The notes: a model not told the origin generated them from the letters alone. 55,153 nucleotides of DNA from Patescibacteria group bacterium (GCA_018969615.1 JAGWYA010000006.1:1-55153); one strand, 5' to 3'. Positions 2,273 through 3,307 are shown, counted from the stretch's first letter. Numbers and translations are program-made.

Positions 2273-3307
2273 ATGCGGAGAGCTGCGGCCGTCGGTTCGA
2301 TTGCGCTGACAGTGGTCTTTGCGTTCGCGATTTCTCGCGGTCTTGCGCAATCGGGATCTCGAGAGGCTCCCACTGCTGATGTTGCGTACGGCGACCCCGG
2401 CCATCGCGCCTTCTTTAACTATCAGAAGTTTCTGATAGGTCGTGGTGAGGGCGGGATAACATCGGAACAGTGGCAGTCTCTGGATCGGGAGGCTCGTTCC
2501 CAGCGCATCGGTCGGGAGGAGACGTTCCTTGCAAAGAAGTATAAGGAGCTTTCCGCCAAGACGAATCTGAGCGGCGCCGAGCGTGACTTCTTTGTTGCTG
2601 TCTGGGGGCAGCAGGACTCTTCCGGGAGGGTCAGAGATCGCTCAGGTGAACCTGCCACCCAGCGAATGGCGACCACGGCGATTGCGGGGCGCTTATCAAA
2701 GTTGGCCACCAAAGTCGGCGGTGTGGAGGGTTCTCTCGATACGCTGTATGACGGCGGTCGGCGACATGACGGGGTCGTGGGAGTCCCTGGGCAGAATCGC
2801 CGAGCACAGTACTCCGGAGCCCTTTCTCCGAAGGCTCCCGTGCGATTGGACGCTGTGGCGCCTGTTCCGCTTCCGACCCGCAAAGATGAATCGTCTGGGA
2901 AAGGCGGTATCCCGTGGGGGCTCCTGGGAATGGTGACGGTCGCCCTGCTCCCCATTGCCTATGCATTCGCGAAGCGTGAGGTGAAGAAGGAACTGGCGAG
3001 CGAGTTTGATCTGGACATACGCTTGAGTCCATCTGAAAAATCCTCGGATGATCCGCCTGCGCCTGACGACACAAAGGTCAGTTGCGCAAAGACCTGTGAC
3101 AGCACGTGCCCGGCAACGTGCGAGAATAGTTGCGGGAAGGGCACGTGCGAAGATTCGTGCCCATCGACCTGTTCCGGCACCTGCCAAGACACCTGCCTTG
3201 CGACCTGCGAAGATACGTGCAACTTCACCTGCAAGGATACCTGTCCGAGCACGTGCCCCTGTCCTAAGACAGGCTATACCTGTGGGGACACCTGCGGGTG
3301 TCCCTAG
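2273..3307 (+). CDS. Signal-peptide and TM-anchored protein whose C-terminal tail resembles a class I lanthipeptide precursor (FDLD leader box plus Cys/Thr tetrad-repeat core)
   Basis: N-terminal signal-like MRRAAAVGSIALTVVFAFAISRGLAQS. TM helix GIPWGLLGMVTVALLPIAYAFA (nt 2906-2971) followed by KREVKKE, consistent with positive-inside topology. ELASEFDLDIRLSPSEKSS (FDLD at nt 3005-3016) resembles the subtilin and nisin leader box. The core at nt 3080-3304 has 19 Cys, 17 of them directly preceded by Ser or Thr. The stop overlaps the lanC start. Confidence 0.6.
   Translation: MRRAAAVGSIALTVVFAFAISRGLAQSGSREAPTADVAYGDPGHRAFFNYQKFLIGRGEGGITSEQWQSLDREARSQRIGREETFLAKKYKELSAKTNLSGAERDFFVAVWGQQDSSGRVRDRSGEPATQRMATTAIAGRLSKLATKVGGVEGSLDTLYDGGRRHDGVVGVPGQNRRAQYSGALSPKAPVRLDAVAPVPLPTRKDESSGKGGIPWGLLGMVTVALLPIAYAFAKREVKKELASEFDLDIRLSPSEKSSDDPPAPDDTKVSCAKTCDSTCPATCENSCGKGTCEDSCPSTCSGTCQDTCLATCEDTCNFTCKDTCPSTCPCPKTGYTCGDTCGCP

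What the first reader, a model, noticed from the sequence alone, without database searches (positions are those of the whole stretch)
3080..3307. 75-aa core made of about 17 tandem x-x-(S/T)-C tetrads with 12-nt DNA periodicity, an unusual ring-forming geometry
What the sequence shows: the core reads SC AKTC DSTC PATC ENSC GKGTC EDSC PSTC SGTC QDTC LATC EDTC NFTC KDTC PSTC PC PKTGYTC GDTC GCP.
- It contains 19 Cys. In 17 of them the residue immediately before is Ser or Thr.
- The spacer residues are often acidic, Pro or Gly.
- The DNA shows the matching 12-nt period (nnnnnnAC[C/G]TGC).

Established knowledge:
- Lanthionine rings form by addition of a Cys thiol to a dehydrated Ser or Thr, which usually lies N-terminal to the Cys with at least two residues between them.
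- Nisin has five rings.

Inference:
- Adjacent T-C pairs cannot cyclise with each other.
- A regular ladder would therefore need one of two geometries. One is Dhb(i) to Cys(i+5), giving overlapping, interlocked rings. The other is Cys(i) to Dhb(i+3), with reversed polarity.
- Either way there could be up to about 17 thioether bridges along one chain, giving a rigid ladder-like rod.
Basis: partly seen in the sequence, partly recalled or inferred. Interest (0 to 1): 0.7.

Follow-up and report, generated by a model that had tools for sequence, protein, structure and literature searches.

The report
Membrane-tethered Thr-Cys repeat lanthipeptide substrate
The Thr-Cys repeat is real: it is the cytoplasmic tail of a 344-residue membrane protein encoded just before a lanthionine dehydratase and cyclase, so it is probably stitched into a chain of about 19 sulfur bridges, a widespread kind of lanthipeptide substrate for which I found no published description.

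Summary
Window 3080..3307 encodes 75 residues with 19 Cys, 17 of them preceded by Ser/Thr, mostly spaced 4 apart. No shuffle reproduces this. The period is kept by selection on the protein, not by a DNA repeat.

The tail ends a conserved 344-aa protein:
- signal-like segment
- small helical extracytoplasmic domain
- linker
- one TM helix
- invariant FDLDIRLS leader box
- (x-x-T-C)n core

Its stop overlaps the start of lanC, and a full-length lanB follows 3 nt later. No transporter or protease gene is in the operon.

An HMM search and a LanC-guided genome scan show a large family of FDLD-box precursors with Thr-Cys-rich cores placed before LanC-LanB in many phyla; every member I looked up is named "hypothetical protein". 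Relatives with the same membrane scaffold but no FDLD box and little Thr sit before a radical SAM enzyme instead.

Donor/acceptor counts (19:19 in the window) and a "lone" last Cys across the family favour the normal N-to-C polarity. That implies a continuous chain of interlocked Dhx(i)-Cys(i+5) rings closed by TCxC.

The operon lies on an integrative island next to a Dsr1-like gene, in a probable Patescibacteria genome. The chemistry and the function remain inferred.

The parts
1678..2256 (+). Secreted ~192-aa partner protein with a signal peptide and a carbohydrate-binding-module-like beta-sandwich. It is conserved next to every LanBC-linked relative that carries the membrane scaffold, and next to the short-precursor locus L095.
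   Evidence: - Homologues (40-63% identity) lie beside the precursor gene in L001, L003, L004 and L011, and a duplicated version in L005.
- L095 also has one.
- AF2 mean pLDDT is 87.8.
- Foldseek top hits are CBM70/CBM22/CBM4/CBM16 modules and phage tailspike glycan-binding domains, E 1e-8 to 1e-6.
- The domain is widespread and is also fused to AraC regulators.
2273..3307 (+). Whole precursor protein (344 aa): a LanA-like substrate fused to a membrane scaffold.
   Evidence: - Translation.
- Four full-length homologues, E 4e-67 to 4e-54.
- The alignment shows conservation along the whole length.
- Purifying selection acts in the N-domain, linker and tail.
2273..2350 (+). N-terminal signal-like hydrophobic segment (residues 1-26, MRRAAAVGSIALTVVFAFAISRGLAQ).
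   Evidence: - Kyte-Doolittle 19-residue windows exceed 1.6 at residues 2-25.
- Positively charged n-region read directly from the sequence.
- Whether it is cleaved or acts as an anchor was not determined.
2390..2605 (+). Small helical extracytoplasmic domain (residues ~40-111), with invariant DP.H..FFN.QKFL, W67, E83, Y90 and A.WG.
   Evidence: - Invariant columns.
- This is the only confidently modelled part of the AF2 model (pLDDT 72-83, four helices).
- No Pfam family matches and no PDB fold match for the whole-protein model.
- It is duplicated in the Elusimicrobiaceae homologue.
2909..2971 (+). Single transmembrane helix (residues ~213-233), followed by KREVKKE.
   Evidence: - Hydropathy above 1.6 at residues 211-234.
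- A hydrophobic segment at the equivalent position is detected in most full-length relatives.
- A basic flank lies on the C-terminal side, so the tail is predicted to be cytoplasmic (inference from the positive-inside rule).
3005..3028 (+). FDLDIRLS leader box (residues 245-252), the presumed LanB/LanC recognition element.
   Evidence: - F245 D246 L247 D248 I249 R250 L251 S252 are invariant in five sequences.
- Homologues P0002 and P0003 hit TIGR04363 'FxLD family lanthipeptide' at this position, E 1e-4 to 3e-4, below the cutoff.
- The same [DE][DE]FDLD[IVL]R box is found in 66 of 80 ORFs that end at a related LanC start.
3071..3304 (+). Core (residues 267-344): T267 plus the (x-x-S/T-C)n ladder, with 19 Cys and 23 Ser/Thr. 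The finding itself covers 3080..3307.
   Evidence: - Sequence and counts.
- Invariant Thr and Cys columns, including the two isolated donors T267 and T333.
- Forward pairing matches 19 of 19 Cys.
3298..4623 (+). LanC cyclase. Its GTG start overlaps the last 10 nt of the precursor gene.
   Evidence: - PF05147, E 3.7e-60.
- Best solved relative is 8byk_A (E 4.7e-57); NisC matches at 1e-15.
- The WCYG, CHG and GLAHG motifs align with the corresponding NisC motifs.
- The overlap was read.
4627..7728 (+). Full-length LanB dehydratase, starting 3 nt after the lanC stop.
   Evidence: - PF04738, E 1.3e-153 (residues 44-676), plus PF14028, E 8e-48 (residues 762-1015).
- PDB matches: 9g04 at 8e-94, MibB (5ehk) at 1e-69 and NisB at 1e-31, over residues 44-1019.
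7729..8139 (+). 136-aa ORF with one hydrophobic segment. Its start abuts the lanB stop. Function unknown, and it is not conserved in relatives.
   Evidence: - Translation.
- No Pfam, NCBIfam or PADLOC hit.
- L001 and L002 carry different genes at this position.
2..1573 (+). Context: C-terminal part of a Dsr1-like defence protein, cut by the window edge.
   Evidence: PADLOC PDLC04166 (Dsr1), E 1.7e-13, profile positions 767-1006 of 1227.
8190..18319 (.). Context: the rest of the integrative island.
- HNH protein at 8190..9332
- Large serine recombinases at 9322..11265 (-) and 16711..18315 (+)
- tRNA-His at 18247..18319 (-)
   Evidence: - Pfam assignments.
- tRNAs.
- GC skew changes sign at about 18 kb, and GC drops from 0.54-0.58 to 0.51-0.56.

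Best explanation
**What it is**
- The region encodes the core of an atypical class I lanthipeptide-type substrate.
- The substrate is not a small peptide. It is the C-terminal, cytoplasmic tail of a 344-aa bitopic membrane protein.
- The protein's parts, in order: signal-like segment, small helical extracytoplasmic domain, about 100 residues of disordered linker, one TM helix, then a leader-like segment with an invariant FDLDIRLS box, then 78 residues of (x-x-Thr-Cys)n.

**Proposed mechanism (inferred from the known chemistry of NisB/NisC-type enzymes)**
1. The FDLD box recruits the co-translated LanB, which glutamylates and eliminates up to 23 Ser/Thr.
2. The Zn-dependent LanC then adds each of the 19 Cys thiols to a dehydro residue lying N-terminal to it.
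3. The pairing that uses every Cys is: T267-C271, S270-C275, then Dhb(i)-Cys(i+5) all along the repeat (one i+6 step at the GKGTC irregularity), T327-C330, T333-C337, T336-C341 and T340-C343.
4. Each ring encloses the Cys of the previous ring and the Thr of the next. The product would therefore be one uninterrupted chain of about 19 interlocked (methyl)lanthionine rings. It resembles nisin rings D/E concatenated, capped by a terminal T-C-x-C.

**Fate and function (low confidence)**
- No exporter or leader protease is encoded in the operon, and the tail is on the cytoplasmic side. I therefore expect the cross-linked tail to stay tethered to the inner face of the membrane.
- It would work together with the extracytoplasmic domain and the co-conserved secreted CBM-like protein.
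- The mobile-island setting suggests a role in conflict or defence.

**Shown versus inferred**
- Shown: the sequence pattern, conservation and selection, gene linkage, enzyme intactness at motif level, family distribution, and the donor/acceptor asymmetry.
- Inferred: that modification happens, the ring connectivity, the topology, and the function.
For: **Pattern and translation**
- The pattern is real and far beyond chance.
- The tail is translated and under purifying selection.

**Linkage to intact enzymes**
- The lanC start overlaps the precursor stop, and lanB follows 3 nt after lanC.
- Both LanB domains and the LanC metal and acid/base motifs are present.
- The FDLDIRLS box is invariant and hits the FxLD lanthipeptide model weakly in homologues.
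- The order precursor-LanC-LanB recurs in L001, L002, L004, L005, L006, L008 and L095.

**Family distribution**
- 63 of 80 genomic loci found with a LanC profile have an FDLD-box ORF with at least 8 Cys ending at the LanC start. In 46 of the 63, at least half the Cys are preceded by Ser/Thr.
- The HMM search of 1.84 billion representative proteins gave 178 relatives. They include many 75-260-aa FDLD-box/(xxTC)n precursors.

**Thr tracks the LanBC partner**
- On the same membrane scaffold, Cys preceded by Thr is 70% (103/146) when the FDLD box is present and 20% (43/220) when it is absent.
- The two box-less members whose context I could read are followed by a radical SAM enzyme, not LanBC.

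**Ring polarity**
- Forward matching pairs 19 of 19 Cys in the window; reverse matching pairs 17 of 19.
- The two Thr not adjacent to a Cys (T267, T333) are invariant.
- In 39 family members the last Cys lacks Ser/Thr at -1 in 37, and the first Cys in only 11. Discordant cases split 26:0, p = 3e-8.
- The independent genome set replicates this: 57 versus 37 of 63, discordant 24:4, p = 2e-4.

**Topology**
- There are two hydrophobic segments, and a basic flank follows the second.

**Context**
- A Dsr1-like gene lies directly upstream.
- Recombinases and tRNA-His bound the island.
- Relatives sit next to E2-CBASS/ThiF, patatin and TIR genes.
Against: - No chemistry was observed; everything about the product is inference.
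- The window protein itself does not reach any lanthipeptide precursor HMM.
- The forward-versus-reverse difference in matched Cys is modest: 92% versus 87%, and 90% versus 85%. The family members are related, so the p-values overstate independence.
- Thr-Cys repeats also occur in proteins that hit the radical-SAM-target repeat family PF27846, and in a GH25 muramidase, with no FDLD box. T-C periodicity alone does not prove lanthionine.
- A near-identical core exists in L095 as an ordinary 116-aa precursor without the membrane scaffold. The scaffold is therefore dispensable for modification, and the product might be released.
- One homologue (P0001, L003) has no LanBC downstream on its short contig.
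- PADLOC recognises none of the operon proteins. The defence link is guilt by association only, with no enrichment statistics.
- The topology is predicted from hydropathy and charge only.
Confidence: 0.6

Rival explanations
1. The enzymes and substrate are the same, but the polarity is reversed. Each Cys(j) adds to the dehydrobutyrine three residues downstream (C-x-x-Dhb). The result is a string of about 16 small, non-overlapping, back-to-back rings instead of interlocked ones.
For: - The regular part of the repeat satisfies this geometry just as well as the forward one.
- C330-P-K-T333 is also a C-x-x-T unit.
- From my own knowledge: Cys-N-terminal rings exist in cinnamycin/duramycin (class II). 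The radical-SAM product freyrasin shows that tandem small rings made from repeated Cys-X3 motifs are chemically viable.
Against: - It leaves 2 of 19 Cys unpaired in the window and in four of the five close homologues, and the invariant T267 has no partner.
- Across the family the 'extra' Cys without a neighbouring Thr sits at the C-terminal end, not the N-terminal end: 26:0 and 24:4 discordant cases.
- The recurrent ending T-C-x-C(-P-P-P) has no role in this model.
Confidence: 0.2
2. It is a classical released lanthipeptide. The 266 residues before the core act only as an oversized leader and membrane-targeting device. After modification the core is cut off by an unlinked protease and exported or released as an antimicrobial or signalling peptide.
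For: - L095 carries an almost identical core as a 116-aa stand-alone precursor.
- Relatives carry twin-arginine-like signal peptides ahead of the FDLD box (P0045, P0050, P0079, P0087, P0115), which implies export after modification.
- Unclustered lanthipeptide proteases are documented (PMC8960859, title and abstract, seen).
Against: - No LanT-type or LanP-type gene is in the operon or among the island ORFs that I scanned.
- The extracytoplasmic domain and the linker are themselves under purifying selection. The same scaffold recurs with a different maturase. Both argue that the N-terminal part has a function of its own.
- The core has no recognisable lipid II-binding motif (read from the sequence, plus my own knowledge).
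Confidence: 0.15
3. It is a metal-binding or redox tail. The Cys stay as free thiols or thiolates, as in a metallothionein, a zinc ribbon or an Fe-S cluster, and LanBC act on something else or are unrelated neighbours.
For: - 25% Cys content.
- The scaffold relatives without Thr (Cxxx repeats with Gly/Ser/Asn) show that the Cys period can exist without Thr.
Against: - The tail is the only FDLD-box, Ser/Thr/Cys-rich ORF next to LanBC, and it is translationally coupled to LanC.
- Thr at -1 is invariant and tracks the presence of the FDLD box. A metal site has no need for it.
- The uniform C-x3-C spacing lacks the CxC/CxxC clusters of metallothioneins.
- No metallothionein or other Pfam family matches.
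- Even the Thr-poor relatives are paired with a cross-linking-type enzyme (radical SAM).
Confidence: 0.05
4. It is not a gene feature at all: a non-coding or frame-accidental 12-nt DNA repeat, or a mis-called long ORF made by fusing two genes.
For: - The 12-nt periodicity is visible in the DNA.
- A short stand-alone precursor exists in L095.
Against: - TRF finds no DNA repeat.
- Synonymous sites are saturated while Thr and Cys codons are conserved at the amino-acid level.
- Five genes at about 40% identity keep one open frame of 344-356 codons, with conserved residues throughout.
- More distant full-length relatives exist.
Confidence: 0.01

Closest known systems
Nisin-type class I lanthipeptide systems (NisA/NisB/NisC)
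   Same: - Full-length LanB with both domains, and a LanC with the Zn-ligand motifs.
- An FxLD-type box about 19 residues before the first predicted donor. From my own knowledge, nisin has FNLD about 16 residues before Thr2.
- A Ser/Thr + Cys core.
- Thr directly followed by Cys, as in the intertwined rings D/E of nisin (T-x-T-C-x-C).
   Different: - The precursor is a 344-aa membrane protein rather than a 57-aa peptide.
- There are 19 potential rings in 78 residues, against 5 in 34.
- One motif is iterated about 15 times.
- The gene order is A-C-B.
- No LanT, LanP or immunity genes are in the operon.
Lanthiphages / lanthivirins: FxLD-family class I clusters with anti-phage activity in Actinobacteria (bioRxiv 10.1101/2024.06.26.600839; 10.64898/2026.08.26.747419)
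   Same: - Class I LanB/LanC.
- An FxLD leader.
- Usually no ABC transporter, and proposed intracellular action.
- Location in defence islands and mobile elements.
- Cores with C-x3-C-x3-C spacing: the motif TXDXCXXXCXXXC is present in 57% of their cores.
   Different: - Those are short peptides, reported only from Actinobacteria. They come with LphD/E/F accessory genes (PF14028, PF01135) that are absent here.
- The present core is far longer and strictly T-C periodic.
- The present precursor is membrane-anchored.
- The host is probably a Patescibacteria bacterium.
Cxxx-repeat radical-SAM target proteins (Pfam PF27846 'tSAM_targ_Cxxx_rpt'; NCBIfam TIGR04117)
   Same: - The same N-terminal helical domain, TM helix and Cys-period-4 tail are found in P0008 and P0019. 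These hit PF27846 and are followed by a radical SAM gene.
- The close homologues P0001-P0004 hit PF27846 at varying strength: unmarked for P0003, weak for P0001 and P0002, faint for P0004.
   Different: - The window locus has LanC and LanB and no radical SAM gene.
- It has an FDLD box, and Thr at -1 of Cys.
- The window protein reaches no NCBIfam repeat model.
Freyrasin and other ranthipeptides/SCIFF peptides (my own knowledge, not checked here)
   Same: A RiPP core built from tandem short Cys-containing motifs, each converted into one small thioether ring. The product is a peptide that is almost all rings.
   Different: - The thioethers are made by a radical SAM enzyme on unactivated carbons of Asp/Thr, not by dehydration and Michael addition.
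- There are six rings rather than about 19.
- The precursor is small and soluble.
Bufferins: MNIO-modified Cys-containing RiPPs with Sec signal peptides (bioRxiv 10.1101/2024.03.18.585515, seen)
   Same: - A RiPP precursor that is unusually long and carries an export signal.
- Cys residues are the modified sites.
- Widespread, and long annotated as hypothetical.
   Different: - Different enzymes and chemistry, and a metal-binding product.
- In bufferins the modified part is exported. Here the modified tail is predicted to stay in the cytoplasm.

Membership tests
Class I lanthipeptide biosynthetic system | Full-length LanB dehydratase (glutamylation plus elimination domains) encoded next to the substrate gene | tested here: met
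   - PF04738, E 1.3e-153, and PF14028, E 8e-48.
- PDB relatives MibB, NisB and 9g04 match over residues 44-1019.
- Individual catalytic residues were not checked.
Class I lanthipeptide biosynthetic system | Stand-alone LanC cyclase with the Cys-Cys-His zinc site and the catalytic His | tested here: met
   - PF05147, E 3.7e-60.
- AWCYG, FCHG and GLAHG align with the corresponding NisC motifs.
- C304, C353, H354 and H236 are invariant in five LanC sequences from this family.
Class I lanthipeptide biosynthetic system | Precursor with an FxLD-type leader box N-terminal to a Ser/Thr- and Cys-containing core | tested here: met
   - FDLDIRLS is invariant, and the core has 23 Ser/Thr and 19 Cys.
- Caveat: the curated model TIGR04363 is hit only by homologues and only below its cutoff (20.9-22.2 bits against 30). 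The window protein does not hit it at all.
Class I lanthipeptide biosynthetic system | Small dedicated precursor peptide, with a leader protease and/or ABC exporter in the cluster | tested here: not met
   - The precursor is a 344-aa protein with two hydrophobic segments.
- No protease or ABC transporter family was found in the operon, nor in the island ORFs that I scanned with Pfam. Four small ORFs in the 12.7-15.1 kb region were scanned with PADLOC only.
Class I lanthipeptide biosynthetic system | (Methyl)lanthionine thioether rings in the product | not testable with these tools
   Needs expression, mass spectrometry, thiol alkylation and NMR.
Lanthiphage / lanthivirin anti-phage lanthipeptides | Accessory LphD/LphE/LphDE (stand-alone PF14028, PF01135 methyltransferase) or LphF/CoiH genes in the cluster | tested here: not met
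   Pfam scans of the operon ORFs show only LanC and LanB. The features are as defined.
Lanthiphage / lanthivirin anti-phage lanthipeptides | Membership of the actinobacterial LanC 'defensive clade' | tested here: inconclusive
   - The host markers point to Patescibacteria.
- The nearest LanC (62%) is from an Elusimicrobiota MAG, and actinobacterial LanCs are at 37-45%.
- No phylogeny with the published clade was built.
Lanthiphage / lanthivirin anti-phage lanthipeptides | Location in defence islands or mobile elements, and absence of an exporter | tested here: met
   - Dsr1-like neighbour.
- Serine recombinases and a tRNA-His border.
- E2-CBASS/ThiF, patatin and TIR neighbours in L001 and L002.
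- This is association only, with no enrichment test.
Lanthiphage / lanthivirin anti-phage lanthipeptides | Protection against phage | not testable with these tools
   Needs heterologous expression and plaque assays.
PF27846 / TIGR04117 Cxxx-repeat radical-SAM targets | C-x-x-x repeat region recognised by the family model | tested here: inconclusive
   - Precomputed PF27846 hits for P0001-P0004 range from faint to unmarked.
- P0003 hits TIGR04117 at E 0.0046, 17 bits against a cutoff of 50. The window protein has no hit.
- PF27846 is not in the local Pfam copy.
PF27846 / TIGR04117 Cxxx-repeat radical-SAM targets | Adjacent radical SAM maturase | tested here: not met
   - LanC and LanB follow the window gene.
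- Radical SAM follows only the FDLD-less relatives P0008 and P0019.
Metallothionein-like metal-binding peptides | CxC/CxxC clusters, no requirement for flanking Thr, and recognition by a metallothionein family model | tested here: not met
   - The spacing is almost uniformly C-x3-C, with invariant Thr at -1.
- No Pfam family is hit at E <= 0.01.

The most novel reading that the evidence does not exclude
**The reading**
- The product is not a released peptide. It is a lanthionine-cross-linked membrane protein that stays whole.
- An extracytoplasmic helical domain works with a secreted glycan-binding (CBM-like) partner.
- It is coupled through one TM helix to a cytoplasmic, protease-proof rod of about 19 interlocked thioether rings.

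**Supporting observations**
- The same scaffold has recruited either LanBC or a radical SAM enzyme to cross-link its Cys-period-4 tail. This implies that the cross-linked rod itself, whatever the chemistry, is the functional element.
- The system travels on defence and mobile islands. Here it sits in a genome-reduced Patescibacteria bacterium, where it would act in cell-surface sensing, anti-phage conflict or host-attachment conflict.
Probability: 0.3. Interest if true: 0.9.

Novelty: new variant of a known kind. Interest (0 to 1): 0.78.

Why it matters
- **Ring density.** If the tail is modified as predicted, it would be by far the most densely cross-linked lanthionine structure that I know of. 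It would have about 19 rings in 78 residues, in a single interlocked chain; nisin has five. It would also be a case of LanBC modifying a genuine membrane protein rather than a dedicated small peptide.
- **A testable question about LanC.** The comparative data make one question directly testable: can a LanC cyclase run processively along a periodic template with fixed i-to-i+5 regiochemistry?
- **Interchangeable maturases.** One protein scaffold is served by two unrelated thioether-forming enzyme systems, LanBC and radical SAM. This is a natural experiment in maturase exchange.
- **A large, unannotated family.** The family is widespread, and every member I looked up is named 'hypothetical protein'.
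- **Tractable hosts.** It occurs in culturable Streptomyces, Kitasatospora, Kribbella, Nonomuraea, Sorangium and Nannocystis, so experiments are feasible even though this window comes from an uncultured lineage.
- **Unconventional roles.** Variants with twin-arginine signals, long folded leaders or a position inside a contractile-injection-system locus suggest roles beyond classical lantibiotics.

Tried and rejected
- **Tandem Repeats Finder** on 2800..3500 at minimum score 30 gave nothing. A DNA-level repeat is rejected.
- **Exact look-up** of the window protein in the contig index: not on record.
- **JGI metagenome scan** with the protein alignment: 600 pattern hits, none confirmed.
- **IMG/VR scans** with the precursor alignment and with the LanC alignment: none confirmed. 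There is no evidence that the system is phage-borne.
- **AlphaFold2 of the whole protein:** mean pLDDT 45, with only residues 40-111 confident. A Foldseek search of that model found no match below E = 6. The tail helices in that model are not credible, and I did not use them.
- **Family scans of the precursor and the N-domain relatives** (Pfam, NCBIfam, PADLOC): no family. The weak MltB_2 hit (E 0.011, 15 bits against 248) was discarded.
- **PADLOC** on the operon and the other island ORFs: only Dsr1, plus HTH-type hits on a recombinase.
- **Literature searches** found no description. I searched for core-like strings, Cxxx repeat/TIGR04117/PF27846, twin-arginine + class I lanthipeptide, contractile injection + lanthipeptide, lanthiprotein/giant lanthipeptide, Patescibacteria + lanthipeptide, and interlocked or overlapping rings. 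The library lacks most subscription journals, so this is not proof of absence.
- **Context look-ups for the signal-peptide/'PLYxxR' Thr-Cys proteins** (P0064, P0088): the contigs were too short or showed no maturase. Their enzyme partner remains unknown.
- **Dedicated LanC clade:** LanC identities among (xxTC)n loci are 35-44% across phyla. That is not clearly higher than to the solved MadC-like 8byk, so I do not claim a dedicated LanC clade.
- **Beetle-antifreeze-like disulfide beta-helix** (my own knowledge): considered and dropped. Its period is 12 residues rather than 4, it is secreted, and it does not explain the LanBC linkage.
- **Internal start codons** (M220, V238) for a short precursor: no convincing ribosome-binding site, and the only promoter-like match (3012..3041) is at chance level.

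
Full report
**1. The observation**

Window 3080..3304 reads SCAKTCDSTCPATCENSCGKGTCEDSCPSTCSGTCQDTCLATCEDTCNFTCKDTCPSTCPCPKTGYTCGDTCGCP, followed by a stop at 3305..3307.
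- It has 19 Cys, 17 of them directly preceded by Ser/Thr.
- The Cys-to-Cys spacing is 4 in 13 of the 18 intervals.
- None of 100,000 shuffles of the same residues reaches 17 [ST]C pairs; the maximum was 13.
- The preceding 268 residues of the same protein contain no Cys.

The DNA has a 12-nt period. Identity at lag 12 is 0.49, against 0.30 +/- 0.03 for codon shuffles. However, Tandem Repeats Finder sees no repeat, and the Thr and Cys codons vary: ACC/ACG/ACA and TGC/TGT.

**2. It is translated and selected**

The tail is the end of ORF 2273..3307 (344 aa). Four proteins of 347-356 aa match it over 97-100% of its length at 39-42% identity.
- After the FDLD box there are 29 invariant Thr/Cys columns, and 26 of them use more than one codon.
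- Between the window and its homologues, synonymous sites are saturated (pS 0.77-0.93) while pN is 0.24-0.28.
- Close pairs give dN/dS of about 0.1-0.3.

**3. Anatomy of the protein**

| Residues | Feature | Evidence |
|---|---|---|
| 1-26 | Signal-like hydrophobic segment | |
| 40-111 | Four-helix domain with many invariant residues (DP.H..FFN.QKFL, W67, A.WG); the only part AlphaFold2 models with confidence | |
| 112-212 | Poorly conserved, unmodelled linker | |
| 213-233 | Second hydrophobic segment, followed by KREVKKE | |
| 245-252 | Invariant FDLDIRLS box | |
| 267-344 | The core | |

By the positive-inside rule the helical domain is outside and the tail is in the cytoplasm. That is where LanB, which needs Glu-tRNA, and LanC work. 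This topology is an inference, not a test.

**4. The enzymes**

- The lanC start (GTG 3298) overlaps the last 10 nt of the precursor gene. lanB starts 3 nt after the lanC stop.
- LanC matches PF05147 at 3.7e-60. It keeps the WCYG, CHG and GLAHG motifs that align with the corresponding NisC motifs.
- LanB has both the N-terminal (1.3e-153) and C-terminal (8e-48) domains. It matches the solved dehydratases 9g04, MibB and NisB end to end.
- A 192-aa secreted protein is encoded 16 nt upstream.
- A 136-aa ORF abuts the lanB stop.
- No transporter or protease family was found in the operon or in the island ORFs that I scanned with Pfam.

**5. Relatives**

*Conserved module.* The partner protein, the precursor, LanC and LanB recur in L001, L002 and L004. 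They also recur, with the partner duplicated and moved, in an Elusimicrobiaceae MAG (L005). That MAG's precursor has a duplicated helical domain, a TM helix, an FDLDIRF box and an irregular Cys-rich tail. The partner is a CBM-like beta-sandwich (pLDDT 88; Foldseek hits to CBM70/22/4/16 and tailspike glycan-binding domains).

*HMM search.* A profile of the five full-length proteins, searched against 1.84 billion representative proteins, gave 178 hits. They fall into four groups:
1. Full-length scaffold proteins with an FDLD box and Thr-Cys tails.
2. Full-length scaffold proteins without the box, whose tails are C-x3 repeats poor in Thr.
3. Proteins of about 520 aa that share only the helical domain.
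4. Many 75-260-aa proteins with a [DE][DE]FDLD[IVL]R box followed by (x-x-T-C)n.

Within group 4:
- Some have no N-terminal extension.
- Some have a twin-arginine-like signal before the box.
- Some have an N-terminal TM segment.
- Some have a folded leader of about 110 aa.

*Context of the representatives I could read:*
- P0050 (Tat-like signal) is followed by LanC.
- P0055 (Kribbella) is followed by LanC and LanB. It sits inside a contractile-injection/tail-like locus, after a Peptidase_S74 fibre gene.
- P0008 and P0019 (scaffold without box) are followed by a radical SAM gene and then an S8-like peptidase.

*LanC-guided genome scan.* A LanC profile scan of one genome per species returned 80 loci. 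They come from Acidobacteriota, Myxococcota, Actinomycetota (Streptomyces, Kitasatospora, Kribbella, Nonomuraea), Chloroflexota and others.
- In 63 of them, an ORF with a strict FDLD-type box and at least 8 Cys ends at the LanC start.
- In 46 of those 63, at least half the Cys follow Ser/Thr.

*Closest genomic LanC (62%, Elusimicrobiota MAG, L095).* It has the partner gene and then a 116-aa precursor. Its core is almost identical to the window's, but it has no helical domain or TM helix. The leader-plus-core is therefore a module that exists with or without the membrane scaffold.

*Annotation.* Every family member I looked up is annotated 'hypothetical protein'.

**6. Thr tracks LanBC**

Within the membrane scaffold family, Thr precedes 70% of tail Cys (103/146) when the FDLD box is present, and 20% (43/220) when it is absent. 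The Cys period alone is therefore a property of the scaffold. Thr at -1 plus the FDLD box is what comes with LanBC. This is what one expects if Thr is the dehydration substrate. One caveat applies: other Thr-Cys repeat proteins without an FDLD box exist. They include signal-peptide proteins with a PLYxxR-like motif that hit PF27846, and a GH25 muramidase. T-C periodicity is therefore not diagnostic on its own.

**7. Ring polarity**

Adjacent Thr-Cys cannot reasonably close on each other. The regular part of the repeat fits either Dhb(i)-Cys(i+5) (overlapping rings) or Cys(j)-Dhb(j+3) (separate rings). The irregular ends discriminate between them.
- With donors N-terminal to acceptors at distances 2-6, all 19 Cys in the window can be paired. 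The pairing uses the 17 neighbouring Ser/Thr plus two isolated Thr (T267, T333) that are invariant in the homologues.
- The reverse rule leaves two Cys unpaired.
- In 39 FDLD/(xxTC)n family members, the last Cys lacks a Ser/Thr neighbour in 37, and the first Cys in only 11. Discordant cases split 26:0.
- The independent genome-derived set gives 57 versus 37 of 63, with discordant cases 24:4.
- A recurrent ending, T-C-x-C, often followed by Pro-rich residues, fits a last Dhb(i)-Cys(i+3) ring.

I therefore favour forward polarity: one unbroken chain of interlocked rings. I rate this at roughly 3:1 over the reverse model, given that the sequences are related and the overall difference in matched Cys is small.

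**8. Genomic setting**

- The window starts inside a Dsr1-like gene (PADLOC, E 1.7e-13).
- The operon is followed by an HNH protein, two large serine recombinases and tRNA-His at 18.2 kb. There the GC skew changes sign and housekeeping genes begin: IF-2, thrA, thrC and the H+-pyrophosphatase.
- Relatives L001 and L002 are flanked by E2-CBASS/ThiF, patatin and TIR genes.
- Two housekeeping proteins have their best matches in Patescibacteria MAGs. The H+-PPase is 82% identical to a Candidatus Harrisonbacteria MAG. IF-2 is 79% identical to a 'Patescibacteria group bacterium' MAG.

The host is thus probably a CPR bacterium that acquired the module on an integrative island. Two markers are thin evidence, and the defence link is association only.

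**9. Comparison with what is known**

- The enzymology is ordinary class I (nisin-type).
- The lack of an exporter, the FxLD box, the C-x3-C spacing and the island context resemble the anti-phage lanthiphages/lanthivirins. Those are short actinobacterial peptides with accessory genes that are absent here.
- The scaffold belongs with the Cxxx-repeat radical-SAM targets (PF27846/TIGR04117), but the defining radical SAM partner is replaced by LanBC.
- I found no paper describing Thr-Cys-periodic lanthipeptide cores, membrane-anchored or Tat-signal LanA proteins, or LanBC in contractile-injection loci. The searchable library omits most subscription journals.

**10. Verdict**

- It is a new variant of a known kind: a class I lanthipeptide system whose substrate is a membrane-protein tail, with a periodic core predicted to become a ladder of about 19 rings.
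- It is one member of a large family for which I found no published characterisation.
- The product chemistry, topology and biological role are untested.

Noticed in passing
window 2..1573 (+): [quoted passage not shown] It is not homologous to the genes upstream of the module in L001.
   Followed up: partly
window 8190..18319: - The first ~18 kb of the window looks like an integrative island. It holds an HNH protein, two large serine recombinases (one with extra HTH domains), a receiver-domain protein and several ORFs with no family.
- It ends at tRNA-His, where the GC skew flips sign.
- ORF 16711..18315 overlaps the tRNA on the opposite strand.
   Followed up: partly
window 21222..52798: - The housekeeping part of the window has its best matches in Patescibacteria MAGs: the H+-PPase at 82% to Cand. 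Harrisonbacteria, and IF-2 at 79%.
- Yet it encodes a fused aspartokinase-homoserine dehydrogenase and a threonine synthase. From my own knowledge of the group, such amino-acid biosynthesis genes are often reported as reduced in these genomes.
   Followed up: partly
L008 1..16363 (Kribbella sp., GCA_043197265.1): A 120-aa FDLD/(xxTC)n precursor with LanC and LanB sits inside a contractile-injection/phage-tail-like locus. The neighbours are gp25, Tail_P2_I, a Peptidase_S74 fibre gene directly upstream, and eCIS_core downstream. This suggests a structural or payload role for the modified peptide.
   Followed up: no
P0045, P0050, P0079, P0087, P0115; L007: Several short family members carry a twin-arginine-like signal (SRRxF...) N-terminal to the FDLD box. 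This implies export of the already cyclised peptide by the Tat pathway. I found no report of natural Tat-signal lanthipeptide precursors.
   Followed up: partly
L095 1462..3799 (Elusimicrobiota MAG GFS_5282): The closest genomic relative has the CBM-like gene and then a 116-aa stand-alone precursor. Its core is nearly identical to the window's but lacks the helical domain and TM helix. The membrane scaffold was therefore gained or lost as a block.
   Followed up: partly
L012 198..4249; L014 110..3902: Scaffold relatives without the FDLD box are followed by a ~397-aa radical SAM enzyme and then an S8-like peptidase. These are a likely maturase and protease pair for a parallel, non-lanthionine version of the same protein.
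   Followed up: partly
L003 905..2105: Homologue P0001 ends early (…CHCPQTSRPA). On its 4.8-kb contig it is followed by opposite-strand genes with no family instead of LanC/LanB. This is possibly a rearranged or decaying locus.
   Followed up: partly
P0011, P0038, P0064, P0065, P0088, P0125: - These secreted proteins have long (x-x-T-C)n regions but no FDLD box.
- Several share a conserved SPLYxxR/TPLYxVRMEQ motif after the signal peptide.
- P0011 carries a GH25 muramidase domain.
- Their modifying enzymes, if any, were not found.
   Followed up: partly
P0030-P0037, P0041 etc.: Proteins of about 520 aa share only the N-terminal helical domain. P0031 contains an HEFQH motif, i.e. an HExxH pattern. 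They hit no Pfam family.
   Followed up: no
L006, L098, L119, L128, P0130; L107, L108, L117, L123, P0077, P0094, P0141: Two recurrent leader domains of about 110 aa precede the FDLD box. The acidobacterial type reads ...LWLLY.SLDMSR..EI...DI..., and the actinobacterial type reads ...GDSDR.G.RRLYFT..LDY..EF...DV....
   Followed up: no
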